Shown here one piece after another: positions 25,995-56,289 of a stretch of 64,000 bases of DNA (position 1 is its first letter; each line of letters starts with the position of its first letter). The DNA comes from Ginglymostoma cirratum (taxonomy: Eukaryota). The stretch lies in assembly GCA_024137785.1 (NCBI GenBank), contig JAHRHZ010000062.1:26832244-26896243 (forward strand). Reading direction: 5' to 3'. The position numbers and the translations under genes are program-made. The notes below the pieces were generated by a model. The model was not told the origin of the DNA. It was given only the letters and a program-made list of their open reading frames with translations, and searched no databases.

Positions 25995-26205
25995 GAGGTT
26001 GGTTAGTTTAGTTGGCAGGTTCACTGGCTTGTGATGCAGACTAATGCCAATAGTATGGGTTCAATTCCTGTACGATGAAAGTCTCACCTTCTTAATTTCA
26101 CCCCTTGCCTGAGGCTTGGTGACCCTCAGGATAAACTCCCACCAGTTCTGTCTCTCTCTGTAATGAGAGAGCAGCCCTCTGGGACAATGGTGGCTTGTAC
26201 TTTTA
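25995..26205 (+). mobile_element. tRNA-derived SINE
   Basis: A-box-like TAGTTTAGTTGG and B box GGTTCAATTCC, followed by a body with a CTCTCTC/GAGAGAG hairpin. Confidence 0.6.
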
Positions 26206-28524
26206 TCTTATGCCAGTCTTTTCATTTGCCGTAACTAGGTTCAATTTTCAGCCATCCAGCATTGTTGCCCATTTCCTTGCTGTTCATATCTCCCTGAAAA
26301 TTTCCCTCCATAGTTTCTCTTGCAAGTCTGTTTCTTTTTAAAGTGTGTCACACCCATATTCTTTGCCTTTTTGTGTATGTGTACAACAAATTTCTTTGTT
26401 TGTTCATTCAACACAGACATGTGGCATTTTTATCATGCTCCTTGAATAATAATGTAAGGCTTTAATTATTGTACAGTATAGTGGTTTATATAGTATTCTA
26501 ACGCTATTTTGTGAGAAAGTTAGAATAAGCTAAAATGCAGGCTTTTTTAATTTTAACTGTCCTTTAGTGTCATGTAAAAACACCATATTTTGTACAGAAA
26601 ACAAAAGGTTTAGCATTATAATGCTGCTTTTTACAAATTCCTTTCTATAGTATGCACAGTGTAGAAAAATTAAGTGGTCACAGAAAATGGTGGAAATATA
26701 GAATGTCTAATGAAACTCTAACAGTAAAAATTTTAACCTTGTAAGTATATAGCTACATACTGAATGTTTAAAAATTGGTAAAATATACCTCAGAGATTTG
26801 AGGTACACTCAAGGGGGTCAAATAATGGGATAAACAGCATAAGCTTCCCAATTGCACTTTTGCCACCTAGAACCATGATTGTGTTGACAGCTGTGTAACA
26901 CACTCACAGCCATCTGTTATTCTCTATGGCCTGGAAATGACACAGTGTGATATTAACGTGTGTGTTTGTATGAAATTACTTTGTCTGCTACTTTGTCAGG
27001 GCCATTAACCTGGTTATTTTAAATGGTTTAAGGACTTCTTTAATATAGCAGAAAAAGTATTTTAATTTAACCGCATCATTCATCTGTTTTTTAACATATG
27101 ATATAATTTTTACACTTACATGTTGTACAGTGGAAAAATGACGTGTTAAAAAGAAGATGAAATTAGTGTCAGGATACACCAGTGAAATGCTATGATTTGG
27201 ACCCAGGCATAGATATGTGAGGTGAGGCAGGATAGCTTTGAAGTATGCCTTAGATGTCAGGTATCAGCTAGGAGGATTAAGAAGACATGTTCCATGTGCA
27301 GTAATACAACATAACGGGTGGAGACTGTGAACAGTCAGTCACAGGTATTTCATGGTCCAGGATCACTCTTAGAAGATGACAGAGCAGGTTCCATTGGGCT
27401 CCAAACATATTATGTGCGAGTTCAGCACTAAACTGAGGTGTAAGGAGTATAAGATGAGTTTGGAAGTAAGATAATGGACAAATGTCTATGGGAAACTGAC
27501 AGAGAAATGAACACAGTGGCATCTTTGAACAACCTGTTTATTAGCAACTGATATACTGTTGAAACGATAATTATTATTAATCATCCTGTATTTTAATATG
27601 AATTTCCAAGAATGTCACACATTGAATTATACAAGAGCTGGCACATTGAAAGAGACATCAAAATAAGCTCCATTCCCTACTCTATCCCCGTAGCCCTGCA
27701 AATTGTCCACATGTACTCATGGTAGGATTACTTTGAGATGTATGGATTTTATTTCCTTGGATGGATAACCTTTGAGTAAGAGGAGCTGACTGTCCGAAAT
27801 GCACACAGACCAGCACTATCTGTCTGGGAGGTTGAACATTTCTGTACTTTCGTGACATTGATAGGGAAAAAAAGAACCATTTGCACTCATCACAGTGCTG
27901 GCTGCTGGAGTCATGACAGCATTGCTGCCCTGCCAGCCCTTGCTCTTGTCAGCTCCAGAGAGCAGCAGAGAAGCAGTTTGTTCCTGACAGCACACAGCCC
28001 CTCTGCTGGGCCCTGGTTTCATGTTACATTAAGTATTAGTGCTGTTCTTTCAGGAGCCATTATGCTGCAACATCAAAGATCGACTTGCAGGGCAGTCCTA
28101 GGTTAGTCCCGATTTCTGCTGGACCTTTTCAGGCATGAAATGAAATGTACATGATTAACCTAGTGCTGATAGTGAGACAGAGTTTTGATCCTGATCTTTT
28201 TTTGTGTGTGAGGGGAAGTGGATAATTTCCATCTAATTATACATATTTTAGAGAAAGCCTAAGGAATATTCAGTGCATAAAATGAAGTTGTGGCATTGTG
28301 GTGCTTTGTTCTTGTTGTAGATGGTGATATCCTTAGAATGGAATAAATTAAAGAGGCATTTACTTTGCTAGTTTGTTGTTGATGTCAGGCTTATCTACAG
28401 GTGCTGAAAAACTCAAAATAAGGGTCATTTCTTCAAGTGTGTCTGATGGCTCTGCCATCTCCAAACAACAATATAAGTGCACAGTGAGCATACTGCTGAT
28501 AGCAGACATGTTTCTTTGAGTCTG

Positions 28525-28632
28525 GGTTTGATTTATTGGTGTCACACATACCAAGATGCAGTGAAAAGTGTTGTTTTACATACTACACAGGCAGATTGCA
28601 CCATGCAAAGTGCATCAGGGTAGCAGAACAGA
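28525..28632 (-). repeat. Short interspersed repeat (probable LINE 3' tail), copy 1
   Basis: TTTGATTTATTG.TGTCACA..GTGAAAAGT.TTGTTT..ACAGGCAGAT..ACCATGCAAAGTGC..AGGGTA..AGAACAGAG, shared with 53991-54100. Confidence 0.7.
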
Positions 28633-30914
28633 GACCAATAAAAGCAGGCCTCATGCCCACCCTGTAGAGGCTGGTATTTTAATGATCACAGGCCCAAACA
28701 GCCTGTCTCCAACCAGTAGACAAGGCACTGTAACAGCAATATACGATCTTAAACTAACTGTACACATCTACAACATGCCTAAAGATGATAACGTAAAAGT
28801 AGAATCTGTACCATTATGTAAATAAGCTAACTTCTTGTAGGGAGTCAGTTTTTCAGGACCATTTCCTTGAATCACACGCTGCTTGGCTTGGAAAATTTGG
28901 ACCCTACTAGGCCAGTTTGGTTTTTCTTTTACTATCTCTGCATTTTGCAGGCTGCTATAGACTAATGGGCCTTTGACATTATTAAATGGATTCTGGGAGA
29001 GGAGCCTAAGTTGTCCTGCTAGTGTAACTGGGAGTTGTTCCCAAAGGACATGCTGCAAGCTGCCTATGTGACATTTTGTCCGGTATGTAATTGATAGAGT
29101 ATTGGTGTCGCCTTTTGACATTAATATAAAAATACTGAATCTGTCTGGCTGCCTTATAGTATTAACATGAAGATAATGAATATGTCTGTACTCATTAATA
29201 CCACAATACAATGTCCTGGTTTCAACAAATATCAATGCCATACATACCCCAGCACAACACTTACGAGCATCATTAAGTCAATCAGCACCCAGCAAAACCT
29301 AGTGAAATAGTGGTTTTATGTGCTGCTACTGTGAAAAAATTCAGCATGTTTACCTATGATGGGATTAGTGGCTGTTGGTGACCCAGACCAGAGGAATGGT
29401 AGCCTGAAAGGAATGTGCAATTGATGATAATACGAAATTAAATATAATATTTCAGCACACTGTGTGTTTAGTTGTCATTACACACATTTTGTTCATTAAT
29501 ATTATTTATAATTCTATATCACAAGAATGAAAGTGCCGATTAGAGGGTGAGGGTTAGTCATAAGAACAATTGTTTTGATTACACAGTTACAGTGAATGAA
29601 TGGCAAATTGGAGACTCTAGGCTTGGTTTTCATTTATGATATGTATAATTTTGCTTCTGCATGCCTGTGGGACATGTGACATTGTTTCGTATCTGTAAAA
29701 ATGCAACGTCTATCTCTTAATTTCTAGCTAAGAAGAGACCAAAAAGTACAAACTGTGTTATTTTAAAAGACAAGTTTGGAGCCAGCATCTTGTCTTGATT
29801 CTCTATCAGACGGGTAAGAACTCAGTGTTTAGAGTAGCTGTGACCTGCCCTCCTCCAATGATGTATAGCCAGTTGCCTCAAACCAATTTAGGAAGTACAA
29901 TTTAAGTAGAGAGTCTAGGGTTTTAGCTTTGAATCATTTCTGTCAAATTTTGTCCAATGCCTCAGTGAGTAAGTGCATTAGATGCTGTAATACCAGACCA
30001 TGCAAATAAAGAAGGCATCAGGCTCAAGGCCAGGACTCTACTGAATTAGCTATTCTTCACTGGTCTAATGAAAGTGGGACAATAATCGTTGTTAATACTT
30101 GGGAGAAAATCAGCCTGTTTTTCATAGGTACTGCGTGAGCATTAGATTGAGCTTGGCTTGCATGCCTAATCTTATTGGTATTTTGTTAAAGTTATGGCCC
30201 AGGAGTGGAGTATAGAGCATTAATCTATTTTTTGTTGAATTTGCTGAATTTTGCTGTATTGGGTTTAGTCCTCTATTGAAAAGGAAAACAGAGAGATAAA
30301 CTTCAACCAATACCATTCCCAATGTTGTGGATTGGATTTTGTGTCTGCAAAGTAGGTGGGTTACCCCTGCCAATCCCTGGCTGTGGCCTTGTAGATGCTG
30401 AAATTGGAAGCCAATCTGCCATTGTGAAATTAGCAACTAACAAATGATTGAGCATATTAAAGAACTGTTTGAATGCGACTTTTTGTTGTTTGCTGCACTT
30501 TTCAAAGCTCATATGGGAAATCATATGGGAGTGTCTTATGGCAGTTTTGACGAGTTGGTACAAGGGTGGAATACAATGGCTGCCACCAGGACTATGTTTG
30601 CATTTAGCAGCAGAGCCTGCTGGTGAATGTGGCAGCATCTGTATGATTTCTGTCTTCAGTGATTCTTTTGAGCTTTTCATAAGAAATAAGGTCAGATTCA
30701 GAGGTCAGAAGGCCTTTAAACTGATGGCTTGTTCCAGCATAGGCTCTATCACATGACATCTCAGTCTAGATTACTGATTACCAACAGAGCTGCTGGATGG
30801 CCGCTTGATTCACTGAGCTGAGATGACAGGTGCAGGACAGACAGACCTATTACTTCATTCCAGTTCCCTTGCTCTCATATAAACTATTAAATTCAGGCCC
30901 ATGATTCACTTTTC

Positions 30915-31580
30915 TATTCTTCCATGGGATGTGGGCATCACTCGCAAGGCTAGCACTCATTTAATATAGCTTATTGCCTTAGTATTAAGTTTGTAATTAA
31001 GCCAGTTTCCGTAGTGCTTCAGTCCCTTGGTGGTGACATCTGTAGTGCTGATGGACATAGAATTCCAGGATTTGGGCCACCAGAAAGGAAAAAGCAGATG
31101 TAAAATTCCAAGTCAAGATTGGGTATGACATGGATAGATGTTTTGCTGTTACCATGCCCCTCCTGCTATTGTTCCACTAGGTGATGGAGGTGGAAGATTT
31201 GGGAAGTGCTATGAAGCCTTGGTAAGTTGCTGCAGTGACTTTTGAGAATGTTAAATACTGTAGAAATGATGCTGGTGGGCGAGGAAGTGACTGTTTAAGA
31301 TATGGTTGGACTGCTGACAAAACAGACTTTCTTGAGAATTGTTGGAGCTGCATTATCCAAGCAAGAGAACAGTATTCCATCACAATCCCAATCTATCCTT
31401 GTAGATTGGGGATATGCTTTGGTAGAAAGGAGATGGGTTACCTATTACAGATTTCCTGGTATTTGCCCTGTTCTTGTAACCATGGTACTTATTTGCTTGG
31501 TTCAGTTTCTGGTTAGTGGTGACTCCAGGACTTTGGTGGCAAGGGATTTGCTGATGGTAATGCCACTAAATGTTAACGAG
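30915..31580 (-). mobile_element. CR1-clade LINE 3' fragment (second subfamily)
   Basis: ORF 31177-31383 begins MMEYCSLAW (RT C-terminal VMEYSPLAW-like); tail GATGCCCACATCCCATG on the minus strand. Confidence 0.75.
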
Positions 31581-34500
31581 AGTGCAGTAAGGGGATCACT
31601 CTTAACTGGAACACAGAGACATTTTCAGAAAAAGAATTTACTTTATTCTGCTTATTCTGACAGAATGAGAATTGGTCGTCTGCGTGAAATTTATCACTTA
31701 TGCCTTCCTGACCACAAAATGGGTAATGACCTTTGAACAAAAATCAAAAATAAATTTGATTGGCATTAAACTTATGTACCTGCCGGCTGAATAACAGTCT
31801 TAATGTAATCAATCTGACTGTAGAAATAAGCCCGAGTCCAGGGATATTTCATTGTCTCTTGGTTTTGGGGACTGGGGTACAAGAAGTATAACTTATAGAG
31901 AATACAATACAAATACACTGCGTTACAAAGCAGCACAAATTCAGGTACTAAACAGAGTACAGTAAGTTTGGAGGAAGGAATGCACAGGATTCTGTGCTAT
32001 CCCACACCCCTCCACCTCCCCAAAAGAGTGTGCCTGCTGTCCTCTTAATGAGTAGAAATATATTAAAGTACTTGTTGTGCTAATCACAAAGAGCGCTGGT
32101 TCCTTCTGCAGGCTTAGGGTCGAGCACTGCTGTAATAAGAGCTAATGAGATTTGATTGGATCCCCGTGTTGGTCTATGAAAGGCAATTATAAAAATTAGT
32201 AAAAGTCAACTATGTCGAATACAATTTTTAATCCACCCTGCTGATAAAGTGTTGTTATTTTTGTTCCAATTTCAGGTAAGGGAAACCATTCTTGAATTCT
32301 TCTGCTGCCCTCACACGCCACCTCTCCCCACCCCATACCACTACCTGAACTTGAGAGAAATAACTCCCAATTGCAAATTAGTTTTGAAAATGTAAAAAAA
32401 AGTGTATATCAAGAGATTTTTTTAAATAGCTGCCATAGGCTGGGGAATTTAAAAAAGAAACAGAGTGAAGTTTGTTTAATTTCTTAATACTGGGAACCTG
32501 TTGAATCTCAGACCTGCATTGTATTTGGTAGTTAGTGGAATGAATGGGGTGAAAGTTACTTTTATAGACTTATTTTTCCCCTCTAAACCTTGTGGCATTA
32601 GGTTACAAATACTTTCTCAGTGAAATCAGCCCCATTACAATAAAATGCTTTATTGTCCTTTTGGAAAGCGTCATGCGCAGGAAATCACAAATATAAATTC
32701 ACAATTCACAATTCAAGGTCTGCTGAGAGTATATCACTTAGACAGTCATTAGTCAATCCAAAAATGGAATTTGTTGTCAGGAATAACATTTTTTTTTGGA
32801 GCTTGTAACTCTTGGAATAATTAGTTACTGAAATTGTGTATTGGAAAATTAATTAAATCAAACTGGTGTACAGTAGCTGACATGTACTTTTGTTAACATT
32901 TCTGGAAAGAAAGGCTTGGTAAATTGTAGTCAAGGCAGCAGGTTTTATGTAAAATTAATATTTTACTACTGGACCCTTAAAATCATCAGTGAATCTTATT
33001 GACCTGTTAGCGAACTCCCAAATGCAGTGTGACGATGCATAGTCCATTTCTGAGGCCATAAAATAATAAGACTTTTCTATGTGACTACAGAACACAAGTT
33101 ATTAAAGTTTAATTTAGCTTTTCATGCCAGAATACACAGCAATGCAACCTCTGCATGCCTTGCATTTTATCATTAAGACATTAAAGTAGCATCTCCAGAG
33201 TTCCACGAAGTACTGTCTCCAGCTGGTGGGTAATAATTATCCAAAATTTATCCAGAAAATGTTGAAAAAACAATTAATATGCATATACTGAATGAGAGAG
33301 AGAACAAAAAGGGCACCTTGAAAGGCAAAGAAAGAAGAAATATGAAAAGAACCAAGGATATAGAAGCAGTAAGAGAGGCTGTGAGACGCAGCAAACCAAA
33401 AAATTACAACATACAACAGGCTGAAAAGTGAAAATAAAATACAGTCAGTGGGGCAAATTGTAGTATAGCTAGCATGACACAGAAATGTGGGAAGAGGCGC
33501 TGGAGGTAAGACAGATGTATAGAAATGAATGAGAGCAGAGAATAATACAGGTAACAGGATATAAGAACAGAAAGAAACAATGGGAAAACAGACTGAGTAG
33601 AGCTGGATGGAGATTAGGAACACTAAGAGTCAGTGGTGATGAGATAGAAAGGAGTGTATTTAACAATGTTGGCAACATCTTGATCTTCAGAAGTGGAATA
33701 TGTTTCGTTAACGGCCCATTTTTGAACTCAGTATTAATGGTGTTATCAGCACAATCCTCAGAGTGCTGGCTCAAAACAAATGTACTAAGAATAAGCACTT
33801 AATTCACAGAAGAGTCATATCTTCATTCTAATTACCATTACAACATTAAAGTGAGTGATCAGTGAATATTAGGAAAGACTAAAGTATGATCCACTATATA
33901 AAATTTGGGTGTTACAACACTCCTTTATTTACTTCAGACCTTCAAATTTTGCATCTCAGAATAATCTGTGATGAAACATCTTGTGTCCTGTACATTTTTA
34001 AGACATTGTGCAAACCTCACAAGACTTAAGACTAATTTCCCTCTCCGATTCCCACCATCAATATATTAAAAGCACATTTCAATGAAAGTTTCTTCTCTAC
34101 ACTGATGGTAAATGTCTTTATTGAAAGATATGGACAGTCTTAACCAAGTTTCTAGCATACATGAGCCTGCTGTACAGAATTATTCACACTTATAGTAAGG
34201 CCATTTTGGAAAATGGAAAAGTTACACTGGTGTAATCAGGCTTAATTTCCTGAGGTTCAGGCTAAGGTATGTTGCTGGGGTTAAGGTATATTACTTGGAT
34301 AAAGTAAACTTTACATCTGATGTGTGAGCACTCAATAGCAGCATTCAGTACTAAAACTAGAAATGTATTCCATTTGCAATGCTGAGACCCTAATCTTGAT
34401 AAGCACAAATTTTATCCTTCAGTGTCTTATTTTGACTTTCCCTTCATTAGTTGTAGTCTTATCACTCAGAAAACCATTGCTCATAGTCGTTATATTCATT

Positions 34501-35019
34501 TGTTTGCTTCAAGCAGTAAATTCTTTCCACAGAAAACAAATACACAGAGCATAGCAATGCACTCAGTTTGCTTGTTGTGAAGTTTATGTTTAGATTTCCT
34601 TGTCAATGCCAGACAAAACTATCAAGTCAACGGGTGCAATTCATACATCTTTACAAGGATATCTTTGAAATAACTGGGCACTCATACAAAAGAGAGAAGA
34701 GGGGGAAGCGGAAAATGATTGGGACACCAAGAGATGCCTGGTCCGTACATGACCTCAAGGCTAGAATTTGAAATCTGCTTTTCTTATATCTCATTCTTCC
34801 ATACATGTTGTATACAGATTCCATTTCTAAGATAAATCTCTAAACACTTCCTACATATTACACATCAATGTTTTGAGCTGAAGGTTCAAGCTTATGTTTG
34901 CAGGGGTGTTGGTAGTTGTGGAGAAGTGGGGGCAGTGGGTGGAGGGGGGAGGGCAATGCTGGTATTCGGGAACAAATCCATGCTATTGATTTGCATTACT
35001 CAAAATGGTACCAAGGCAC

Positions 35020-35500
35020 AAATTTACTAATGATGAAATTGAAGACATCTTGAGGGTTTGAAAACGCTTTGGCAGTGCATCAGTATTGTGGTGCAATCCC
35101 AGAGCGGATTCCCCTTGCTCATTTTACAGTAGCAACATGGTATGTTCTTTGGATTCCAATACATTTGAATCTAAATGGGGTTAGGTAAACTCTATTAAGG
35201 ACTTTGACTTGGATCAATCTTAACCTCACATTTTCTGAAGCTGGAGTAATTGACTTATTTATACCTTTCCATATCTCAGAACACTGATCAATAGTAAGGA
35301 CTTTAGCCTGGTCTTTATTCTGTACCTGACGAAGTGCCTTTACACATATGACATATTTCCCTAATGAGAAATTTACGGAGCGGTAGAACAAAGTGCTCAT
35401 CCTTCTGAATAGTGATAGTTTTTATAATTCTGTCAAAGTAGGTGGGCAATTTAAATAACCTCTATCAAGCTACTTTTATGGAAGCACTCAACTAGAGATA
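35020..35500 (-). mobile_element. L1/Tx1-clade LINE fragment (zf-RVT region)
   Basis: ORF 35119-35400 contains W..I...SENVRLRLIQVKVLNRVYLTPFR, matching the LIQFKxLHRxYxTPxR motif preceding the C-terminal zinc finger of L1-type ORF2. Confidence 0.75.
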
Positions 35501-35571
35501 CATGAATCTTTGATCATATAATTTAAGTTTTACCAGCTATATTTCAGGAGTGCAATTAAGCCTTCAATTCA

Positions 35572-35736
35572 GGGCGTAGAGCTGGATGAATGCAGCAGGC
35601 CAAGCAACTGAAGAAGGGTCTAGGCCCGAAACGTCAGCCTTCCTGCTCCTCTGATGCTGCTTGGCCTGCTGTGTTCATCCAGCTCTATACGTTGTTATCT
35701 CAGATTCTCCAGCATCTGCAGTTCCTGCTATCTCTG
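35572..35736 (+). mobile_element. Penelope-like fold-back insert with intact hammerhead core and TSD
   Basis: Arms TAGAGCTGGATGAA..CAGCAGGCCAAGCA / TGCTTGGCCTGCTG..TTCATCCAGCTCTA; core CTGAAGA-A-GGGTC-TA-GGCCC-GAAA-CGTC (35608-35635); TSD AAGCCTTCAATTCA (35558-35571) / AAGCCTTCAGTTCA (35737-35750). Confidence 0.88.
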
Positions 35737-35844
35737 AAGCCTTCAGTTCATCCAATTTCTTCCAATTTGCACTCTTTTCAATTTATACCTTTTGTTCCAT
35801 GATCAAATTAAGATTATAAAATTGGTGCCTGATAAACAATATTG

Positions 35845-36230
35845 CCAGAGGTTGAGCACATAGTCTAGGCCAACATTCTATTGCAGTCTTATGGGAGTGC
35901 TGTATAGTTGAAGATGCCATCCTAGAGATTTTCAAGTAAAACCAGATCAATGTTTTCCAGTGGTCTAAGATTTGATCATACTATTTCAAAGTTGTCAAAT
36001 GCATTCCAGTGTAATTGCTTATATTATTTCCTTGATCAATACTTACAAAACATAATTAACTGGTCAATCATTCATTATTGGTAATAGGATCTCTGTGTAT
36101 GCGAAATAACTGCCACAATAGCTTCCTTGACAATAGTCAATAGGTTGCAATGTGATCAGTTAATTTCATATGAAGTATATTGAAATATTTATGAGTGATG
36201 CAATAGGTGCTAGATAAATAGTGTTATTTT
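35845..36230 (+). mobile_element. Decayed Deu-domain SINE (SacSINE1-like) with L2-type tail
   Basis: GAGCACATAGTCTAGGC..TGCAG..GGGAGTGCTG..GATGCCATC head and AGGTGCTAGATAAAT tail; recognised from memory of the family. Confidence 0.55.
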
Positions 36231-36562
36231 TCTATTTAAAAAATGGTCATGACTATGACTAATGATGCAACATGCTGCACATTGCAGCCAACTAAGGCTT
36301 GGCAAACGATAAATGAAGCCATAGCACAAAGAGACCGAGCTTGGAATGAACATCAATTCCCCAGTGGACATCCAACTATGCTGTTTTCCCTAATGCCAGG
36401 TGGAGGAGTCTTCAAAGAGAAGTGATCATAGCCAATATGATACAGGATAGTTATATAGGTAGAATGAAGCCCTAAATCAGAGTACGTTTTGCATGCATCA
36501 ACTACAATCGACTAAATGCAGTAGGAAACTTAAAGAAAAAATTAAAATGTTTGAGACTTGAA

Positions 36563-36845
36563 CACCGGCAAGCATTTTCTACGATTGTTTGTTACCATTG
36601 TAAAATTGCTAAATTGAACATACCAAAGTTGTTTTGTTTAATGCCATCTTGGGACCCACTTTGCAATTGCCATGCAGACAACATGGTAGGCCAGCAGATT
36701 AGATTCTTAAGGTTTGCATGGACATTATCATCACAACATCATTAAATATTTTTGCTGGCATGAGAAAGTAGGAGAAGGAAACTTGGATTTTACACCTTGT
36801 TTTTAAGCAGTTACATTTGCACAGAAGACATCAATAATGCCATTT
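36563..36845 (+). repeat. Long inverted repeat, left arm
   Basis: Reverse complement of 37816-38097 by manual alignment; ORF track echoes it (QAFSTIVCYHCKIAKLN vs QAFSIVICYDCKIVKLN). Confidence 0.97.
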
Positions 36846-37815
36846 TAGGAAAGAAACATATCTCTCTGGTTGGAAGCCCAGTGTTCTAGCATTGTAGCTA
36901 CTGATCAATCTCGAAGTTTGTCCACTTACATGGAAAGTATCATTCAAACTCAAATATGGCCATATATCTTAAACAATGACAATACATTGACTTATGCATT
37001 AACTAAAATAGCAGATTGTCAAATGTGGAATGAGAAACCCTCAAAATGTTAGCCAAACAAAGCTGTGAGGTAGCAGCTGGCTCTTTGTCTACTGTCTAAC
37101 AGCTAAGTACTGTAGTACATTTCCTTTGCAGCTTTCAAAATATGTACATTTCCTATCAAATAACCTCTGCAAAAATAACACTTTGCAAAATGCTCTCAGT
37201 AAGTGTTGTGAAGAGGAGTTGTTATTTTGAACTGTACAGAAGAGTATCTCCTTATTGGCAATATTCTGTGGAATAGATCAAAATGGCATTCCTCTGCTTA
37301 GACAGCAATTTTAGCCCCTTTCTCAGGATTTTCTTTTAAATGGTAAGTCTCATTGAGATTTAACTCTGAAATTTAAAGGCATTGAACATTCAAAATAATT
37401 AAGGCTGAGGGATGGTATAAACTCTACCTCTGAACATACAATGAATCTTCTGAAGTTGAGACTCTGGTTTGGAGCAGAATAAGTTTCAATAACAGATTGA
37501 AAACGTATCATCATAGATGAAATTATAGTCTAATCCCTAGTACTCTTACACAGACCTTGCACAAGAAAAATTATGAGATACCACGCAATGAAAATAACAG
37601 GTGATTAAAGACTTCGGTGGAAATAAATATCAGTAGACATGTAAAATGGATTGCTGATTCCACCCATTTTACAGTCAGCCCTAACGTCACCATTTTGGAA
37701 TGTATGGGATCAAACAAACACGGAAACATCAAGTTACTTGTCAGACATTCTGCTGGTACCCTTTATAAATGACAGGTGGAGTCAGTTTAACAATTCAACA
37801 CCTTTGAATTGTAGC

Positions 37816-38097
37816 AAATGGCATTATTGATGTCTTCTGTGCAAATGTATCTGCTTAAAAACAAGGTGTAAAATCCAAGTTTCCTTCTTCTACTTCTCAT
37901 GCCAGCAAAAATATTTAATGATGTGTGATGATAATGACTGTGCACACTCTGAGAATCTTACTCTGCTGGCCTACTATATTGCCTGCATAGCAATTACAAA
38001 GTGGTTCCCAAGAGGGCATTACAAAAAATAGCATTGGTGTGTTCAATTTAACAATTTTGCAATCGTAACAAATAACAATAGAAAATGCTTGCCAGTG
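37816..38097 (-). repeat. Long inverted repeat, right arm
   Basis: Reverse complement of 36563-36845; 970 bp spacer between arms. Confidence 0.97.
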
Positions 38098-38669
38098 CTG
38101 CAACGCTGGAATAAGTAATAAGAAAACATCAGGACAGAAGTGTGGTTGGCTTGCTGAATCCACCACACCCGTTTTTTTTTCAAAGAAATTCATTAAATGA
38201 GATCAACTAAGTAGAAGGATTCAATGGCCTGGATTTTGTGGTTAGTATGGTAGAAAAACTGTCAGTATTTGCTATCATTCCCTCATAAAACTGATAACAA
38301 TATTTTGTGTTTGCAAATGAGAGAGCCTATTGAATTCCTCAGGTGGCCAACCTGTGCTACCCTACCATCTTCAATCTGTCCATAGTTTTATGGGGTTTGA
38401 CAAGACCTAGGTTGGCCTGCTTATTCTTTCCCCAACTGAGGTTCTTATGTAGTCAATTGCTATAGCCATAAATAAGTCCAGAAATGGTGGGCAAGTCTTG
38501 CAGAGATTCCTACTCTGGTTTTAGGTAGAGAAGTGGGGGAAACTATTTCCTCTACAGCCCACTTCCAAATACCATGAGCATGCTCCATGCTCACTGTGTC
38601 ATAATTGTGCAAATTTACACAAACAGCTACTGTGACACATATTCCTGTTTTTTACTAAAATTTCTTTAT

Positions 38670-39190
38670 TAGAACACAGAAGGAAGCCATTCAACCCTTT
38701 AAGACTTTCCTGGCCCTTTGTAGTCCAGTCAGCCCCATTCCCCTGCTCTGATCCAGTAGCTCTGCAAGTTTAATTCCTTTCGCGTCCATTCAATTTCTTT
38801 TTGAAATATTTGATCATTGACATTTCTATCCCTTTAGGAAACATTGCAAATGCTATGTCAAGAACTTTTCCCCCTATCCTTTGGCCAAAATCTCACATCT
38901 TTGACCCCTACTTACAATAAAGAATAGAAATAACTATTTGTTACTCACCTTATCTGATCTTGGGATAATCTTGTCCACCTCTTTTAGATTATCCTTTGAA
39001 CTTTGCTCCAAAGAGAACAATACCAAGCTAACCTTGTAGTTAATTTTCTTATCCCTGGAACCGTTCTGGTAAATCCACTCTGCAGCACCTAAAGGACTAT
39101 TACATCATTTGTAAATTGTGGTGAAAAAAATGGATGCAATGTTGTACCTATAACAGATAGTTATAATGGTTCTAACTCCCTTGCCCCCCA
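38670..39190 (-). mobile_element. Decayed CR1 3' fragment
   Basis: AGAACACAGAAGGAAGCCATTCAACCC inverted tail; CCTGGAACCGTTCTGGTAAATCCACTCTGCA encodes a decayed QRRFTR.VPG motif on the minus strand. Confidence 0.75.
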
Positions 39191-40679
39191 GAATCTTGAA
39201 ACCCTCTCTCTGCAACACAGCCTACTAAAAGAAGATAAAGTACTTACTTCTTACCATTGGATTCCACAAGGTTTAGCTGTCAACTAGCAAGGCTTAGGAC
39301 CCAGAAACTGAGGGCCTCTAACTGACTGGCAGCTTTCGGCAATTCCATTTACCAATATTAAGGCCTATGATAAGGCAAGAATCATCCCTCACTTGTCTCA
39401 ATGAGCTGATTGACCAGCAATTGGAAGAGTGATATCACGAGTGGGGCGGTGTGTTAATCAGCAGCCAACACACTCTTACCTACATTTGAAAAGAATATTT
39501 GAAAACTCTTCCCAGAGATATGTTGTCACCATTCCCAATACTACAATCAAAGCGTTCAATTATTTTAAAATTCTTCTGCCGTCCTTTCCTCCACTTGCCC
39601 ATTAGAACTTTGTGTGACTTGACATTAGTCATAAATTTCCTATGTTCCCGTTTAAACTAGTACTTTGAGTTATTGTTGTCGTTTAACTTGCAGAAATGTT
39701 CTGTGTTTATCTTTTCTGTATTGTCTGTTATTTCAAATCACTCTTTCTTAATTTGTCTCATCTCATGCACTCTTTTCACTCTTGGTGATTTCCCACGCTG
39801 TAGAGTTTCACGTAGGTTTTCCATCAAAGTACAGTTAACCTTACTAGCACAACAGAAAACCAAAAGGTTTTTGGCTGAGCCAAAGAAACTAGTATCTTGT
39901 GGAGATCTAGCTGTCTTTTTTTTAATGCAGCCCAACTGTTTCACATATGGTTTTTTTCCTAAGAGCAGTAAAATAACTGGAAAATAACCTCCCCTGAAAA
40001 AAAAACACAAAGCTGGGAAATATTAAGCTGAAATTGGAATCACTACAAACCCATGTGGAAAGTTATAATAAAAGACAGAAAGTAAACATATAAGTTTAAA
40101 AAATAGAATAAGTCATCATACACAATGAGCCCAAAATGATTTAGAAAACTGCTTTTTTTTTGTTTCTGTTCTCGATCTTGACACTAGAGGACAATTTTAC
40201 CTCTTATCTTCCCATAGAGGAGGTCAGTGTTTCTTCTAAAAGAAAGACTGGAAACTTGCTGTTTGGCAAGATAAAAGGAGTTACCAGAAGCTCTGCAAAC
40301 TCACAGTATGGCATTTTAGTGCGTCAGGTATTCATGCCATGATGGCTAGGACAACATATTAATGGGTTAAACATTTGACCGGATAGTTTGCCACTAAAAC
40401 TTGCATTATTTCTTGATCTAGCCGGAAGCTGAAGCTTGTACCAGATGGAAAAATTGGTGCTGCAGCATTTGTTTAGTATCTGTGCTATTGATTCTGATTC
40501 TGAAAAACATCAGTGATCTTGGCCTTACCATGTGATCAATGAGCTGGTGTCTGTAGTGATTTCTGAAGTACTTGTGATTTTCAGGAGTTATTTTGAAAAT
40601 AAAATAAAATAGTATAGTAAGTGAACAGAATCATCATATTATATCATGTACAATAGGCCACTCTAGTGGGAAGAGCAGG

Positions 40680-42500
40680 AATGTAGTAACAGGAGGGACA
40701 ATATAGTTAATGGGATAGATATTGCTCTCTGCATTGTAAATCCTGAATACTATATTACTTGCATGATGCTAGGGTTAAGAACATCTTTGCAATGTTGGAG
40801 GGGAAACCTGAGTAGGAGGGATACCAGTGACATAGTGAGGAGGAAGAAGGAGATTCTGTTCAGAGATTACGAGAAGGTAGGGACTAAAATATAAAGCAGA
40901 ACCACAAAGGTAATAATCTCTGAGCTATGAGCAAATTAGCATAGGATAAAATAAGATCAGAGATTTCAATGCCTGGCTCAAAGACTGATGTGGGAGATAT
41001 GGATTTTGATTCAAGAGACATTGACACCAATTCTGGAGAAAAAGGGGAGCTGTATTGTTAGGGTCTTATCTACTAATACTGAAGCAAAGTACTGCAAATC
41101 CTGTAAATCTGAAATAAGGAGAAAAAGAAAAAGTGGACCTGCCTAATTTTTCCAGATTTTTTTTTGGTCTTTTTCATTTGAAATGTAATGGGACCAGTGT
41201 ACTGGTGAATCATATAACTAGAGAAAACTTTAAATTAAATACTAGGAGTGGAGGCTCACATGGGGAGACTTGGAAAGTTAAAAAGGAAGATCAATGCAAT
41301 GGTGCAAGATAGCACTGCAGCTAATGATAAACAGAATGTGACAGGAATGGATGGAGCGTACAAGCATAAGTGTGCCAGCAAATAATGCCACAGTAGGAAA
41401 AAAAAAATGGTAAAAACAGACTATACTAAAAGCTCTCCTAATCTGAATGCATTCAGCATTCACATCAAAATGGATGGATTGATGAGTCCAATATGATATC
41501 TATTGTCGATTTGGTTGCAAAGTGCTCATGGCTAGAACCTCAAAATTGTAGGGTCTTCAAATACTTTTTGCAAAGACAGGAGGAAAGGAAAAAGAGGTGG
41601 TGTAGCTCTGTTAGTCAAGATTGTGATCAGTAAGGCCAGAGGTAAAGATTTGGTTCAGAGCATCAAATGTAGAATCTATTTGGTTTGAGATAGGAAAGAG
41701 CAAAGGAAATAGTTCATTGATGAGAAAAGGTTCTAGGTCCCCAGACACTAGCTATACTATAGAACAGAGTATTTATTAGCAAATGCTGACATTTATGAGA
41801 AAAGTATTGCAAAATTTGAGGAGATTCCAATCTTCATTTGGATTGGGCAAATCAAATTGGCAGGGGTAACCTGGGGGATGAGTTCAGGTATTGTTTTTAG
41901 GACAGTGGTTTAGAACAACACATAGTAAAAACAACAAAACAACTGACTATTTCAACCTGGAAATTTGGAATGAGACCGAATTAATAAGGATAAAGGATCC
42001 TCTTTGTGACAGTGATCTTAAGATGATAGAATTTCACATACAGTTAAGGGGGGGAAGGGGAAATTAAAACCAGTGTCTTAAATGTAAGTAAAGACAATGA
42101 CAAAGCTTTGAAGACAGAGTTGGCTGAAGTGGACTGGAATGGGAGGTTAAAAGTTAAGATGGTGGAAAAATAGTGGCAGAGTATGTTTCCTTTCATCCAG
42201 TAGTCCAGGACAGGAGCAAGATGCATAGGTTAAAAATAAGGAGTCCACCATTTATGATAGAATTGAGGCGAGCCTTTGTCCTTCAGGATCTCATTAGTCT
42301 GTGGAATTCTCTTCCCTCCAAGAATTGTAGAATATATTCAGACATTCAGTCACATAGATTATTGATTGACATGGAAATTTAAGGTTAAAGATGGTACACA
42401 AAATAAAATGGAGTTAAGGCCACAATATTATGAACCATGTCTTTATCAAATGGCGGAGCAAACTTGAGGGGCCGAATGGTTTATTTATGCTTCTAATTTA
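40680..42500 (+). mobile_element. Internally deleted CR1 LINE (ORF1 esterase + APE endonuclease + 3' end)
   Basis: Decayed IV.GID..ARVK.I ORF1 motif (~40700-40790); APE motifs LNA.SI (~41440), DR..KRGGVALLV (~41575-41620), GD.N (~41820), SD (~42010); then jump to LKIR..F..E.RR.F..SLWNSLP (ORF 42173-42382) and GGGCCGAATGG tail. Confidence 0.85.
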
Positions 42501-42559
42501 TATTTTCATATGTATGTATGCTCTTAGTCTGTATGCTTTTCAACTCTACGCTTAGTTTG

Positions 42560-42790
42560 TATGCCCTTCATCTTTGGCACTCTGTTCCACAGAGAACAGC
42601 CCAGGCTAGATCATTGAATTTATTCAAGGTCAAGTTGGACATATTTTTGATTGACAATAATTATAGGATACAGGCAATAAAGTGGAATTGAGGCCACAAT
42701 CAGAACAGCCGGGATCTCACTGAATGGTGGAGGAGGCTCGATGGGCCAATAGACCAAAAACTTCTATTCTTATGGTGTTATGGTCTTATT
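42560..42790 (+). mobile_element. Second CR1 3' tail
   Basis: ATTCAAGG..TTGGACATATTTTTGA..GAGGCCACAATCAGA..GAATGGTGGAG..GATGGGCCAA, paralleling the tail at 42340-42480. Confidence 0.75.
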
Positions 42791-45700
42791 AAAAAAATGT
42801 AATGCTTGTTTATTCCAGCAATTTTTAATAAATGATACATATATTTATATATGAAATATTTTGTATGAATGCACAATATGAGTGTATTCTTATGTTAGGG
42901 AGTGAAAGCTAAATGCAAAAACCCGTGTTGTGTCTAATTGCAACTGAACCCTGAATGCACACTTTGTTCACTTTCATAATGACTCGTTACCTCAACTGAA
43001 AGTTCCTGAAGGAGCATGTCCAGGATTTTATTAGGCAGGGAACCTTTACGGTCATATTTCCAACTACTAACAGAGATAAAGCTCTGAACTTGCTTGAAAC
43101 TGATCATTGTGTGCTAAGGAGCTACTGAAACTGCTGCTACAATACATGGAGCTACTCCATTAAGAGAACCATTAATGGATATGCAATCCCCAGCACAGTC
43201 TTCTTAGAAGCTGCTTTATGCTAGGAAACTAGCTAAATAAATAAGTCTCAACTACTCTTTTTCAATAGAAAATCTAAATTAATACAGCTAGAATGTTTCT
43301 TTGTCCATCATTACGTCCCACAAAGAGACAGAAAAAGGACCACAAATATTTATTTCAGACTGCCTGAAGCCCTGGCTATGCATCTCGTTAGCTGCAGCAC
43401 AATAGGGAATTACAAAAAGTACAGCAAAAGTAAAATTTGTAAATTACAGTACTATGCAGCTAGAAACTGAACATGTTATTAAAAAAAGCTAATCTTAGCA
43501 GTGAGATAATGTGAATAATCACAGCAACAGGTTAGCATTTTCTTCGGTCATTCTACAAGTTGCCTCCACCTTCCAGGTCAGTAAATGTGGTTGAATGTTA
43601 AAGGCTGTGAATAAGCCTCATTCTCTGCTAGTGCTTCATTGCTATTTTGTTTAAATTGTAATTCTGGATATTCTGTCTGTACTTCAGGTTGCTTACACAA
43701 AGATCATTCGTTTGGCTGATTTTTAATGAGGGAAATTGACCTGCAATTGTCCAGCAACTTGTAGTAGGGGTTTTACTTTAAAGTAAAATTGATTCAATCT
43801 TGAGATTCCTGACAATTGCCAAATTTATTTTAGACTTTAGGGTTTTTGCAATATTCCTCTTATCTGTCACCTTCTGTCCCCTTCTCCCACTCGTCTCGTC
43901 TTGCTTCTTTTCTCCACTCCCTTTTGTTTCTTTTCATCTTTCATTTTCTCCTTTTTGAATAATCTCTCTGTATTGAATTATGTAGGATGTCAAAAACATT
44001 GAATGACAGTGACTTCAGAAAGCCCTCTCATCTCATACCAGGTTGAAGCAATTATACAAGTAAATCTCAACCCACAAATGTCACAAATTGTAAAATGTTG
44101 ATCTTTAGCCAAAATGTTGCTAATCAAGAATGGGAGAGTTATGTTTTAAAGTAGTGCCAGAAAGTCATAAAAACATGATATAAACAACAGAACCTGATCA
44201 GGTTAAAATAAGAACTCGAAAGAAACAGATGTTTTAATGGAATTGAGTATTTTACAATTTAATGAATCCCTGTGACAGGTAATCTCATAAAAAAGTAGAC
44301 ACATTTCAAAGTCCCAAATTATCCAGTTGGTTATAGAAAGTTCTGTCTGGTAAAATAGCAAACTGTACAGAAAGAAAGCTCCTGTTTGATTCCCAGCTAA
44401 TCTCAGTCAGGGACAGCCGTTGGGTGCTACATTTGGCTTCAGTTCAAATGAAAATTGCAAAAAAGAGAGGAGTGAATTGAAGATGTAAAAAAGAGATAAA
44501 TGGGGCAAGAGGATACAAGGTGACAGGCAAGAAAATATTACTAAAAATCTCTTTCCTGGCAATTAATAAGTGATGTTTGCTGGAAAATGTAAGGATAATA
44601 GAATTATACTTGGGACCAAGGCCCAATATAATCCCTCACACAACTGACCCCTTGTGTTCAGAAATTAACATTTGGGAGATGTCTCTACTTGAGAAGGACA
44701 TCAATGAACTGAAGTTGCTCCAAGACCTGCACCTCAGCAACAGTATGTGTCTCTGAGCTTGCGGGGAGACAAATGTAACATAAATCTTGAGACTATTAGC
44801 TGCATATTTGTTAATGATTAATATTGTAGCATTTAATGATATTGCCTGGTAGCAGTTCTCTGTTCAGCCTAAGTAAAGAAGATTTGGCTTCATATAAGGG
44901 ATTGAAATATTTGGTGAAAGTACTGATTTCCCCAAAGGATTTCATAAATATTTAATATTGTTCTTTTAGGATATATTATTTATACTCATGATGAATGCAT
45001 ATTCATGAAAATCTGTAAAATAATTTTTATGTACCCTCCAAGATTGCTTTTAAGTAAAAAATGCATGTTTAGGGTCACTTGCATATTTAAATGTAATCGG
45101 CAGCTTATTTGTCCATCTACATATTATATGTTTGCATCAACCATATAGTTTGTGGCCATTTGGTCGGAAAAAAATAAACAAACCATGTAACATTATGATC
45201 GTGGCATGGAAAAGATTGCATTATCTCCAATGAATGGCCATATTCTCCTCAGTGCAGCATTGAACTGCTGGGCCAGGAAGATCCTAAGTCGATTATTTAA
45301 GCATGCATTTTGACAATGAAGGATTGCCTCTCCATGGTGGCAAAAATAAGATGAAATCACCTGTGATCACAACACATCTCTTTTTCACAGGATAGGAGGT
45401 TACCGAGTTATGCTTTGTGCTTACACGGTTTAAAGAGACAGCTAGCCATTTAAATTATCAAATGCCCCCACCCAAGTTGGATTTTGGTAACCCAGGATCG
45501 TATAACCTAAAATGTACAGAGTTAGACTTGGTAAGAGCAGTTCTGAACTTTGTACAGCTCTTTGGATAGCCATGTTCTTTTGGACGTGGTTCTGGGGCAT
45601 CTTTGGGGAGGCGATTTGGAATTATTAAATGTAGGCATGAATGTGTAGAAAAATGCATAATCTTATTAACTGTCAAACTCATTAGAACTATCAACAGACC

Positions 45701-48332
45701 TTCAAAACCAAGGGTTAAAACTGTCGAGAGGTTCCATCAAACTGACTTGTCAAAACTGTCAAGAGGGCATGTTCAAAGTATCAAGAATCACTGTCAAAAA
45801 TACCAGTGAAGGAATGTAAAAGTCTTACCCTTCAAAATATTTGGAAAATATCCAGTGATTAAAACAAACACATTTGCTGACATTAGCCTGACGATATAGA
45901 TTACTCTGTTACTGCCGCATGACTGATTTTGCAACAAGTCATTATCACAGTGGGATGCCTGCCATTGAACAGTTCCATTGATCGCCACGTGTGTTTATAG
46001 GGTTTATGAAGTGGGACTATGAATTCCAATGTGCATTGTTATAAGGCATTGTGGTTTAAAGGCACTAAGAAGTTTAATGAATATAAATGTTGTAAATTGG
46101 TTGTCAAGAATGAGAATGCTTTTTAAGAATAATGACATTTTTAGTAGACACTGAGAACTCTATTTTACCCCATCTTTGTATGGACTTTACGACTGTCCAT
46201 AGTTGATACTGGGTGAATGATCATAGTAGGTGTAAGAGCAAATGGTGGTGGGTAGGGTACATAGGTTTGCATAAGCTAGCACTAAGCTGGTAAAGGAGCT
46301 GTAAAGGACCATGGGAGTAGATGAAAGTGAAAATGTTGGCACAGAGGGTAGAAGATATTATGGAATATGGGTACAGGGTCTAGGTTTGCATGGTGTATTT
46401 GAAGGGCTATGGTGTGATTGCAGGACATGAAGTAGTATGCGTAGGACATTGGGAGTATGTAGGGTATGAGGAGTTGGGGGGATGTTTTAAGTTACCTTCA
46501 TTTACGCAATGTTTTGTATGCAGTGCCACTACCCTGCTGCCTGTCTCACCTTGTCACCTGGGATTCTCCTCCCTGCTTCCAGTTTGTCCACCATTGCTTC
46601 TCAAATATCTCACCGCCCCAGCTCAAAAATCTTTTCAACACTTGGGCTCACAGAGTGTGGAATTCTCTGACTCTGCGCACCTGGCTCATGAATGAAATCC
46701 AGCCTTGAATCCGTATTGAGTTAGCCAATTTCAATTTGGTTGTTGTAATAGCTTCCATAATATTTGCTTCTATACTCCTCAATAGGAATCAAAACATCAG
46801 CCAATGTGTATCAATGTGATACACATTCTATCCTGTTGAAAAAGCACGCGTTGAATTTTACACTTCCTTGAGGTTAGCAAGTGGAAAGCATAAAATTGGT
46901 GCAATACTATGGGTACCATTACTGGTGCCTACCGACCTGCTCCTATCATACTTTTATGAGTGGCAGGGGATTTGTCGGAAAGTCTGTCTGCATGATCCAA
47001 TTGAGGCATGTAAGTGGCCTCTTTCTAACACAATCGGCACATTTCTTTCCAGGGCAGGTACAGACCAGTGCCATATGTGAAACCTGATAGCTTTCTCCCA
47101 ACGTTCTCCTTGCTACCCCACTTTCCTCCTCCACCAGGGCTAACTACCATGATCACCCCTCCTGATCCTGGTTGGCACACCTTTGCTGGAGCTGTTTGCT
47201 AATCTGGTCCTGTTGAGACACTCCCCTCCACCTGCTCCTTGGCCTCCTTATTTTTGCACCCACTCCAACAACCAATCAGTGTTGAGTGCGTTTGCTGTCC
47301 CAGCAATGGCCATCATAACTGCTGGCACTGCGGAGGCCTAAGATTTTACTTCCACTTGCTTGGATCAAAGTTGAAATTGCAGCTAAAGCCACTTAATGAC
47401 TGTTAAGCGGCTGTGGGGCAAGTTGTGTCACTCTGACATTTGTGCCAGGGAGCTGTACATTGTGGTTGAGAGTAAAATCCTAGCCCATGAGTGCAAATAC
47501 TGAATACGCAGAAGTCACTTGTCCAAGTAGCTGTTTTGCAAGTTTAAGCCTAAACTGTTAATTGGCTGTTTGGCATTTTGAAGCAATTCGGCAAAAATGA
47601 ATTTTTCCTTCATTCAGTGTCAACAATGCACATTTTCTACCATCAGTAAGTAGGCGCCAATGGATAGTGATGAGAGGTAATAATTGTGGATAGTTTCTCT
47701 GATAGCCCATACTATAGTTGCACCCAGATCTAATTTAATAGCAAATATTTCAACTCAGTTAGATTATTAAAGCAAAAATTATTTGCTCAATCTATTAGCC
47801 ATTTTACTTCAATAACCTTAGACAGTTATGATACTATCTTTTAAAAATAAATAAATGTCATTTGATTTCTTTTGTGGAAAAAAAAGACCAAACTCTCTGT
47901 TTTGTGTAGGTGAAGAACGTGTCTCTAAGAGACTCAGAAAATGAACAGAGACTCTGCAAAGTGTTAGAAATAAAAGTCAGGTACACACCTTCGAACTATT
48001 TTACCACCCCCGCAAAAGCTGTTTAAACATACTTCCATGAAATAATAGCTGGGATTTAAGAGCGTTCTTTAGCTTTCTGCTTATCTATAATTCCACTGAC
48101 AGTGCTGAGGCTAGAGTAAAAACAGCTCACTAATAGGATCTGATTCACTCTTATGTTTGTGCACTGGCTTTTTCTTTTTTTATTTTGGTTACATCCAAGA
48201 TATATGTATCCTCCTCTCTATCATATTCTGCATTCTCATAATTTCATCCATTGTCTTCCTGAGTCTTAATGAATTGACTTCTAACCTTTACCTTCACTTT
48301 CAAACCTTTGCAAAATCTTGGACCAGCCTATT

Positions 48333-49686
48333 TAGATTCATAGAATTGTAGAGATATACAGCAAAGAAACAGACCCTACGGTCCAACTCGTCCATGTCGT
48401 CCAGATATCCTTTGTATATCTAGTTCCACTTGCCAGCATTTGACCCATATCCCTGTAAACCTTCCTATTCATTTACCCATCCACATGCCTTTTAAATGTG
48501 GTAATCATACCAGTCTTCACCACTTCCTGTGACAGCTCATTCCATACATGCACCACCCTCTGCATGAAAATGTTGCCCCTTTAGGTCCCTTTTATATCTT
48601 TCCTCTCTCACCTTAAACCTATGCCTCTAGTTTTGGACTCGCCCACTCCAGGAAGAAGACCTTGTCTGTTTACCAAATTCCATGCCCCTCATGACTTTGT
48701 GAACCTCTGTAAGGTCACCCCTTGGCCTCCAATGCTCCAGGGATAATAGCCCCAGCCTATTCAGCCTCTCTCTGTAGCTCAACCCCTGAATCCCTGGCAA
48801 CATCCTCGTATATATTTTCTGAATTCTTTCTAGTTTCACAAAATCCTTCCTACAGGAAGGAGAGCATAATTGCACACAGTATTCCAATAGTGGCCGAGCC
48901 AACGTCCTGCACAGCTGCAACATGACCTCCCAACTCCTATACTCAATACGCACTGACCAATGAAGGCAAGCATACCAAATGCCTTCTTCACTATCCTGTC
49001 TACCCGTGACTCCTCTTTCAAGGAATTATGAATCTGCGCTCCAAGTTCTCTTCGTTTAGCAACACTCTCCAGGACCTTACCATTAAGTGTATAAGTCCCA
49101 TCCTGATTTGCCTTTCTAAAATGCAGCACCCCACATTCATTTAAATTAAACTCCATCTGCCACTCCTTAGCCCACTGGCCCATCTGATCAAGTCCCGTTG
49201 TACTCTGAGGAAACCTTCTTCGCTGTCAAGAACACCTCCAATTTTGGTGCCATCTGCAAACTTACTAACCATACCTCCTATGTTCACATCCAAATCATTT
49301 CTATAAATGACAAAAGGCCATGGACCCAGCATCAATCCTTGTGGCACACTGAGGGTCATAGGCGCTTAGTCTAAAAAGCAGCCCTCCACCACCACCTTCT
49401 GTCTTCTACCTTTGAGCCTGCTTTGTATCCAAATAGCTAGTTCTCCCAGTATTCCATGTGATCTAACCTCGCTAACCAGTCTACCCTGGGGAACCTTGTT
49501 GAACAATTTATGAAATCCATATAAATCATATCCACCACTTTGCCCTCATTAACACTTTTTGTTGTATCTTCAGAAAACTCAATCAAGTTTGTGACACATG
49601 ATTTCTCATGCACAAAGCCAAGTCGACTATCCCTAATCAATCCTTGCCTTTCTAAATACATGTAAATCCTCTCCCTCAGGATTCCC
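48333..49686 (-). mobile_element. 5'-truncated CR1 LINE with reverse transcriptase remnants (best preserved copy)
   Basis: Overlapping frameshifted ORFs: GFVHEKSCVTNLIEF..VDMIYMDF (49437-49661), VPQGLMLGP..NDLD..SKFADGTKIGG (49141-49359), WQMEFN..C.VLHF (48836-49183), LARPLLEYCVQ..PRGDLTEV (48627-48953). Confidence 0.97.
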
Positions 49687-56275: not shown

Positions 56276-56289
56276 GACCTGCACTGACC

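What the first reader, a model, noticed from the sequence alone, without database searches (positions are those of the whole stretch)
36563..38097. ~280 bp inverted repeat with an abrupt identity step between outer and inner halves
Seen by manual alignment: the outer ~156 bp differ at about 29 positions (~81%), the inner ~123 bp (36723-36845 vs 37816-37936) at only 4 (~97%). I see no TSD, no transposase in the 970 bp spacer and no known repeat. A single duplication should decay evenly. Inference: arm-to-arm gene conversion or recurrent flipping of the spacer (a small invertible segment), or selection for a long dsRNA stem (ADAR substrate or endo-siRNA source).
Basis: partly seen in the sequence, partly recalled or inferred. 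Interest (0 to 1): 0.7.

Follow-up and report, generated by a model that had tools for sequence, protein, structure and literature searches.

The report
Edited inverted duplication in shark SOX6
Two mirror-image copies of a 283-base stretch lie 970 bases apart in a predicted intron of a shark's SOX6 gene and are shared with three related species; they likely arose as an ordinary DNA-repair duplication, their inner halves were likely kept alike by copying onto each other, and the RNA likely pairs up and is edited, with no function shown.

Summary
The repeat and the step are real: 30 of 161 outer versus 4 of 123 inner columns differ (4 of 5000 permutations). No third copy was found in this 4.36-Gb shark genome. 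The pair lies in a predicted 186-kb 5' intron of SOX6, on the sense strand. Three related species hold both arms; in one, the inner 110 bp are identical between arms, so this is no assembly artefact. One probable RNA run from the same or a very close species shows 16 A>G among 17 changed places, most likely on the left arm: probable ADAR hyper-editing. Similar local inverted duplications are common here (9 in 1.2 Mb; 5 with 0.9-1.4-kb spacers), matching known repair-mediated proximal duplications. Best reading: an old repair duplication whose inner half stayed convertible because it is constrained, and was homogenised by gene conversion; editing is a by-product. Conversion is not proven: no species-specific change shared by both arms was seen. 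Spacer flipping is unsupported (same orientation in the one informative species). Boldest open reading: the stem loops out a 16-nt stop/ATG microexon candidate at the spacer's centre; no spliced read supports it.

The parts
36563..36722 (+). Left arm, outer half (81% identical to the right outer half)
   Evidence: 139 of 160 nt paired in the predicted fold
36723..36845 (+). Left arm, inner half (97% identical to the right inner half); 36736-36845 identical to both arms of organism B
   Evidence: table 8, record 25 (110 nt, depth 15.5 against about 8, 0 differences)
36642..36814 (+). Stretch of the left arm that is probably A-to-I hyper-edited in RNA
   Evidence: X1 contig with 18 other letters in 173; run total A>G 16, T>C 1; only 36775 is printed by position
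36846..37815 (.). Spacer (loop), single-copy, more conserved across species than the sequence outside it
   Evidence: organism D 69 of 983 against 226 of 1757; organism B 27 of 1030 against 85 of 2072
37119..37187 (+). 69-bp piece with one 84% match on another contig that holds no SoxD gene; likely an old low-copy repeat remnant
37327..37342 (+). Candidate 16-nt microexon at the spacer's centre (strong predicted acceptor and donor; in-frame stop followed by an ATG); prediction only
   Evidence: the RNA contig 37190-37459 crosses it unspliced
37816..37936 (-). Right arm, inner half
37937..38097 (-). Right arm, outer half
1..64000 (+). Whole window lies inside a predicted 186.5-kb 5' intron of SOX6 (first exon at L024:1093-1148, next shared exon at L036:3650-3682)
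   Evidence: exons mapped from predicted SOX6 isoforms of other sharks

Best explanation
This is a single-copy local inverted duplication in a predicted 5' intron of shark SOX6, likely made by double-strand-break repair copying a nearby 283 bp, whose inner ~123 bp were likely kept alike by arm-to-arm gene conversion helped by sequence constraint, and whose RNA likely forms a stem that ADAR edits as a by-product. Steps: (1) duplication before the split from organism D (presence shown; repair origin inferred from size and spacing); (2) outer halves drift apart without compensation (shown for the listed sites); (3) the inner left arm and spacer change slowly between species (shown, modest statistics), so the inner halves stay similar enough to keep converting while the diverged outer halves stop, which yields a step (inferred); (4) SOX6 pre-mRNA pairs the arms (predicted) and is A-to-I edited (one run, no matched DNA).
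For: No third copy. Both arms present in organisms B, C and D; D differs by about 13% outside the spacer. Arm length and spacing fit repair-mediated proximal duplications (peak about 1.2 kb, maximum 619 bp; PMC2671141 passages), and 9 local inverted duplications occur in 1,215,636 readable bases, 5 of the 9 with spacers of 886-1400 bp. B's inner arms are identical over 110 bp; D's contig breaks imply a 35-bp perfect stretch, which has a 1.2% chance at outer-arm divergence. At the 36765/37893 indel B and C carry the base that matches the left arm while the window and D, the most distant species, are not listed with it, a hint of a gain of identity (table 4). Window-left versus B: 0 of 110 where 4 are expected, P about 0.02; spacer conservation P=1.3e-6 in D and 0.04 in B. 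Purifying selection prolonging conversion is described in PMC3924837 (passages). Editing: 16 of 17 changed places are A>G against 78 of 578 in the other three runs, P about 2e-13; four other X1 contigs have 0 differences in 1217 bases.
Against: The standard test for conversion (arms closer within than between species; PMC8327919) is not met: within window 3, within B 0, window-left to B 0, window-right to B 3 differences in 110 bp, and no species-specific change shared by both arms was seen. Organism C's single contig through both arms implies no shared 31-mer, so at least 3 inner mismatches. The indel hint is one base in a T run, from a table showing 12 of 49 rows; the substitution table shows 40 of 469 rows by an unstated ranking. 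The other 8 local inverted pairs show no pooled inner-over-outer trend (227 of 1554 against 217 of 1557, P=0.61). The editing call rests on one contig at depth 4.1 in a run only guessed to be RNA, with no DNA from the same animal, and only 1 of the 16 sites is printed by position. No empty pre-duplication site was seen.
Confidence: 0.55

Rival explanations
1. The stem is selected as an RNA structure: it loops out a 16-nt microexon at the spacer's centre whose inclusion would put a stop in the upstream SOX6 reading frame and add an out-of-frame ATG overlapping the main start, so pairing or editing would tune SOX6 output.
For: Candidate 37327-37342 lies 482 and 474 nt from the arms; it ranks 2 of 9620 acceptor-donor pairs of 30 nt or less on the sense strand of the intron and outscores the real downstream exon (14.6 against 12.8); in-silico inclusion gives a stop after 22 codons and a 27-aa overlapping frame. 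Spacer is conserved. The stem is probably edited. Structures that loop out poison exons are known (PMC10789245 abstract; PMC11632617 passages).
Against: Scores come from approximate, recalled splice matrices; equal scores arise 2-3 times per strand by chance, so about 1.6% for landing in the spacer, post hoc. No joint in RNA; the one contig crosses it unspliced. No G-U bias (11:9, P=0.82) and no compensatory change. The outer half still pairs (139 of 160 nt, -192 kcal/mol), so single inner mismatches would barely affect the stem, and pairing alone does not explain a 97-100% core.
Confidence: 0.17
2. No conversion: both inner halves are under purifying selection as DNA elements (for example twin enhancer modules flanking a conserved core in the SOX6 regulatory region), and the step is the edge of that block.
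For: Inner arms are conserved between species as well as within (0 of 110 to B); spacer conserved; no shared derived change seen.
Against: Needs about 85-95% of changes purged in both copies since the duplication, yet the window's right inner arm differs from B at 3 of 110, about the flank rate, and C's arms differ too. No paralogous copy in 400 kb upstream of the SOX5-like gene, although other SOX6/SOX5 one-to-one matches exist there.
Confidence: 0.13
3. The spacer is an invertible segment; crossovers between the arms and recombination between the two orientations homogenise everything inside the crossover point.
For: Explains an inner-side step; spacer inversions are frequent in large X palindromes (PMC8327919 passages). 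B and D are uninformative because their contigs break in the perfect repeat.
Against: Organism C's 3-kb contig runs through both arms in the window's orientation. No recombinase or transposase in the spacer. Arms are far shorter than those palindromes.
Confidence: 0.08
4. The whole 1.5 kb is a very old non-autonomous DNA transposon with long terminal inverted repeats whose other copies have decayed.
For: One similar-looking pair in the background sample has a 353-aa ORF in its spacer; a 69-bp spacer piece matches one other locus.
Against: No TSD, no third arm copy by BLAST in the genome or by nhmmer in 1.2 Mb; it would still need conversion or selection to explain the step.
Confidence: 0.05

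Closest known systems
Repair-mediated proximal duplications (Pace et al. 2009, PMC2671141; passages read)
   Same: Short single-copy duplication near its donor; 283 bp with starts about 1.25 kb apart, against a described peak near 1.2 kb and maximum of 619 bp; no TSD or poly(A); an inverted example is described.
   Different: Donor and acceptor not identified here, no empty site seen; those cases were found in interrupted transposons of primates and a few other vertebrates; no identity step described in the passages read.
Interlocus gene conversion limited to constrained regions (Fawcett and Innan 2011, PMC3924837; passages read) and palindrome arm conversion (Jackson et al. 2021, PMC8327919; passages read)
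   Same: Old duplicate with a young-looking part; conversion stops where divergence accumulates and persists where purifying selection keeps similarity.
   Different: Non-coding, 0.3-kb arms; the within-versus-between-species signature was not met in the 110 bp that could be compared.
ADAR hyper-edited dsRNA from neighbouring inverted repeats (Porath et al. 2017, PMC5625713; passages read)
   Same: Cluster of A>G changes on one arm of a long, nearly perfect predicted duplex.
   Different: The arms are single-copy, not members of a repeat family; one run only.
Pairs of conserved complementary regions that loop out poison exons (Kalmykova et al. 2021, PMC8052449, passages; BRD2/BRD3, PMC10789245, abstract)
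   Same: Intronic complementary arms, probably edited, around a possible stop-bearing small exon in a developmental regulator.
   Different: Arose by duplication; no compensatory changes seen; the exon is only predicted.

Membership tests
Repair-mediated proximal duplication | Short duplicon within 5 kb of its donor, no further copies | tested here: met
   283 bp, 970-bp spacer, two copies
Repair-mediated proximal duplication | No TSD or poly(A) tail | tested here: met
   flanks
Repair-mediated proximal duplication | Empty site in a relative, with microhomology, filler or deletion at the break | not testable with these tools
   all three relatives laid hold both arms
Concerted evolution by gene conversion | Duplication older than its identity suggests | tested here: met
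   both arms in D at about 13% flank difference, inner arms at 0-3%
Concerted evolution by gene conversion | Arms closer within than between species; derived changes shared by both arms | tested here: inconclusive
   within 3 and 0, between 0 and 3 of 110 for window and B; one indel hint; C and D alleles not seen in full
ADAR hyper-edited dsRNA | Cluster of A>G on the transcribed strand within a predicted duplex | tested here: met
   16 A>G of 17 places in run X1; sense strand of SOX6; 259 arm-arm pairs predicted; placement of 15 of the 16 is inferred
ADAR hyper-edited dsRNA | Absent from DNA of the same individual; replicated | not testable with these tools
   no matched DNA run was listed; one RNA run laid
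Conserved complementary regions controlling an exon | Compensatory substitutions or G-U tolerance bias | tested here: not met
   0 compensatory among 10 listed changes; 11 G-U against 9 A-C; few species, truncated table
Conserved complementary regions controlling an exon | An expressed exon inside the loop | tested here: inconclusive
   strong predicted sites; no joint, but a 16-nt exon would hardly show in contigs
Invertible segment | Both spacer orientations exist | tested here: inconclusive
   same orientation in 1 of 1 informative relative; 2 of 3 uninformative
DNA transposon TIRs / MITE | Multi-copy family, TSD, transposase or family termini | tested here: not met

The most novel reading that the evidence does not exclude
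A chance repair duplication was co-opted in carpet sharks as an ADAR-edited RNA stem that loops out a 16-nt stop/start microexon in the SOX6 leader, giving a lineage-specific, editing-sensitive switch on SOX6 translation, with gene conversion repairing the stem's core.
Probability: 0.12. Interest if true: 0.7.

Novelty: new member of a known kind. Interest (0 to 1): 0.33.

Why it matters
On the likely reading it is a tidy single-copy example of how repair duplication, partial gene conversion and ADAR editing overlap, and a warning that arm identity does not date such a pair. It is also a direct hint of hyper-editing at a non-repetitive shark locus. If the microexon is real, it would show a new splicing and translation control arising from a duplication accident in a gene central to cartilage, muscle and red-cell development (roles recalled), testable by RT-PCR.

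Tried and rejected
Pfam on 300 of 341 window ORFs and Rfam on the window: nothing real; the last 41 ORFs (54571 onward) were not scanned. No tandem repeat explains the arms. No holder on record as RNA was listed; X1 is a guess at RNA, and a 10-nt loose end at 37546 resembles a cDNA template-switch adapter (recalled, not checked). X1 has no own-locus contig over the right arm, which proves nothing. A paralogous copy near SOX5 (400 kb) or SOX13 (200 kb): none. The idea that the spacer's second hit marks a SoxD paralog: rejected, SoxD loci are on C62, C91 and C28, the hit on C82. Family search PF24815 was the wrong probe and gave nothing useful. Strand asymmetry of the duplex: none (-389.7 against -386.0 kcal/mol). 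A general inner-over-outer gradient in local inverted pairs: not found. Of 1.86 Mb gathered for background, about 0.65 Mb read as N and was left out. Literature searches listed no paper on this element; SOX6 does not occur in the main text of PMC8052449 or PMC11632617; their supplements were not read and may list SOX6 pairs or exons.

Full report
Observation. The arms are 36563-36845 and 37816-38097 with a 970-bp spacer. Over 284 columns there are 34 differences; the best split is at 36723/37936, with 30 of 161 outer and 4 of 123 inner columns differing, and 4 of 5000 permutations reach that contrast. There is no TSD, no coding or RNA-family signal, and each arm finds only its partner in the 4.36-Gb own genome.

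Context. An exon 204 kb downstream is the common first coding exon of SOX6 (99% to Stegostoma tigrinum, 96% to Rhincodon typus), and small-acidic-protein (C11orf58-type) exons lie about 140 kb upstream on the other strand. N-termini of predicted shark SOX6 isoforms map to L024:1093-1149, upstream of the window, and to L029 and L038 downstream; joining L024, L036 and L042 reproduces the annotated N-terminus. The element is therefore in a predicted 186.5-kb 5' intron of SOX6, with the + strand as sense. The genome is most likely a carpet shark (inferred from these hits).

Other species. Twenty of 24 listed runs hold part of the stretch; I laid 4, one per organism. B differs by about 3.6%, C by 5.4%, D by 7% in the spacer and 13% outside it. 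All three hold both arms. In B a 110-nt contig at twice the depth, with 30-nt overlaps to three neighbours, matches 36736-36845 exactly: the two inner arms are identical there, which rules out an assembly artefact. In D the contig ends imply a 35-bp perfect stretch; in C one contig runs through both arms in the window's orientation, implying no shared 31-mer (both inferred from 31-letter assembly words). Of 10 listed cross-species changes inside the arms, 7 are sites where the window breaks a pair that B, C and D keep, including two at the step itself; none is compensatory. Only 40 of 469 substitution rows and 12 of 49 indel rows were shown.

What makes the step. The duplication predates the split from D, so neutral inner arms should differ by about 19%. 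Pure conversion predicts about 4 shared species differences in 110 bp between the window and B; there are none (P about 0.02), and the within-versus-between test of PMC8327919 (passages) is not met. Pure constraint on both arms predicts a frozen right arm, but it differs from B at 3 of 110 and C's arms differ as well. A constrained left inner arm and spacer (spacer 69 of 983 against 226 of 1757 in D, P=1.3e-6) plus occasional conversion fits both; PMC3924837 (passages) describes this coupling in yeast duplicates. One indel (36765/37893), where B and C match the left arm and the window and D do not, hints at a gain of identity, but it is one base in a T run. Conversion is thus inferred, not shown.

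Origin and background. In 1,215,636 readable bases (SOX6, SOX5 and SOX13 regions and one unrelated region; about 0.65 Mb of N left out), 62 inverted and 55 direct pairs had arms of 120 bp or more within 5 kb; 9 inverted and 3 direct were local duplications, and 5 of the 9 had spacers of 886-1400 bp. That matches repair-mediated proximal duplications (peak near 1.2 kb, up to 619 bp; PMC2671141 passages), a lead taken from an earlier scan note and then checked against the paper and these counts. Three of the 9 have a significant step, but only this one with the inner half more alike; the other 8 pooled show no gradient (P=0.61). The architecture is ordinary here; the inner step is uncommon.

RNA. 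Run X1 (guessed RNA) matches the window at 0 differences over four contigs (1217 bases), so it is the same or a very close species, yet its contig over 36642-36814 has 18 other letters; the run's changed places are 16 A>G and 1 T>C, against 78 A>G of 578 in the other three runs (P about 2e-13). The right arm cannot explain it, since arm differences are of mixed kinds. The stretch has 52 adenosines, and the predicted fold pairs 120 of 123 inner and 139 of 160 outer bases. This is most simply A-to-I hyper-editing of SOX6 pre-mRNA, as expected of any long duplex (PMC5625713 passages). Limits: depth 4.1, one run, no matched DNA, 8 of 12 laid records shown, one site printed. Editing shows that the stem forms, not that it is selected: mismatches show no G-U bias (11:9) and both strands fold equally.

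A possible exon. At the spacer's centre, 37327-37342 has a strong predicted acceptor and donor, rank 2 of 9620 short pairs in the intron; inclusion would stop the upstream frame and open a 27-aa frame over the main ATG. The matrices are approximate and recalled, equal scores occur 2-3 times per strand, the chance of one in the spacer is about 1.6% post hoc, and the one RNA contig crosses it unspliced. It resembles structure-controlled poison exons (PMC10789245 abstract; PMC8052449 and PMC11632617 passages) but fails the compensatory-change test as far as it could be run.

Literature. Searches listed nothing on this element. PMC5398296 (abstract and Discussion) shows expressed inverted duplicates are numerous in vertebrates; PMC8230782 (passages) reports conversion between neighbouring Alus within about 10 kb. 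No supplements were read.

Verdict. Real, old, single-copy, probably edited; best filed as a repair-type inverted duplication with partial gene conversion (0.55). New member of a known kind, interest 0.33; the microexon switch (probability 0.12) would deserve 0.7.

Noticed in passing
G000 background sample: C91:9701070, C91:9710811, C28:29569281, C140:20179351 and this element: Local inverted duplications with 280-715-bp arms cluster at spacers of 886-1400 bp (5 of 9 in 1.2 Mb), and outnumber direct ones 9 to 3; suggests a preferred repair geometry.
   Followed up: partly
L062:1070-2565 (upstream of the SOX5-like gene): Inverted pair of 305-bp arms at 97.7% around 886 bp, nearly the same geometry as this element; other genomic matches are partial and old. 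Not at the paralogous position.
   Followed up: partly
L075:5574-8559: 534-bp inverted arms (84%) around a spacer with a 353-aa ORF; probably a mobile element.
   Followed up: no
window 36238-36525: X1 contig at depth 33, several times its neighbours, ending just before an A-rich tract at about 36532-36547; likely internal oligo-dT priming on + strand RNA rather than an exon.
   Followed up: no
L024, L031, L035-L037 against L049-L058: Several one-to-one matches between the SOX6 and SOX5 5' regions in opposite, largely collinear order (73-87%, 45-224 bp), likely paralogous conserved non-coding elements and leader exons.
   Followed up: no
L024:1093-1149, L029:5104-5205, L036:3650-3682, L038:2560-2637: At least three alternative SOX6 first exons with N-terminal extensions conserved across sharks.
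   Followed up: partly
window 35577-35687; 57003-57166: Short hairpins within dispersed repeats; ordinary repeat-derived.
   Followed up: no
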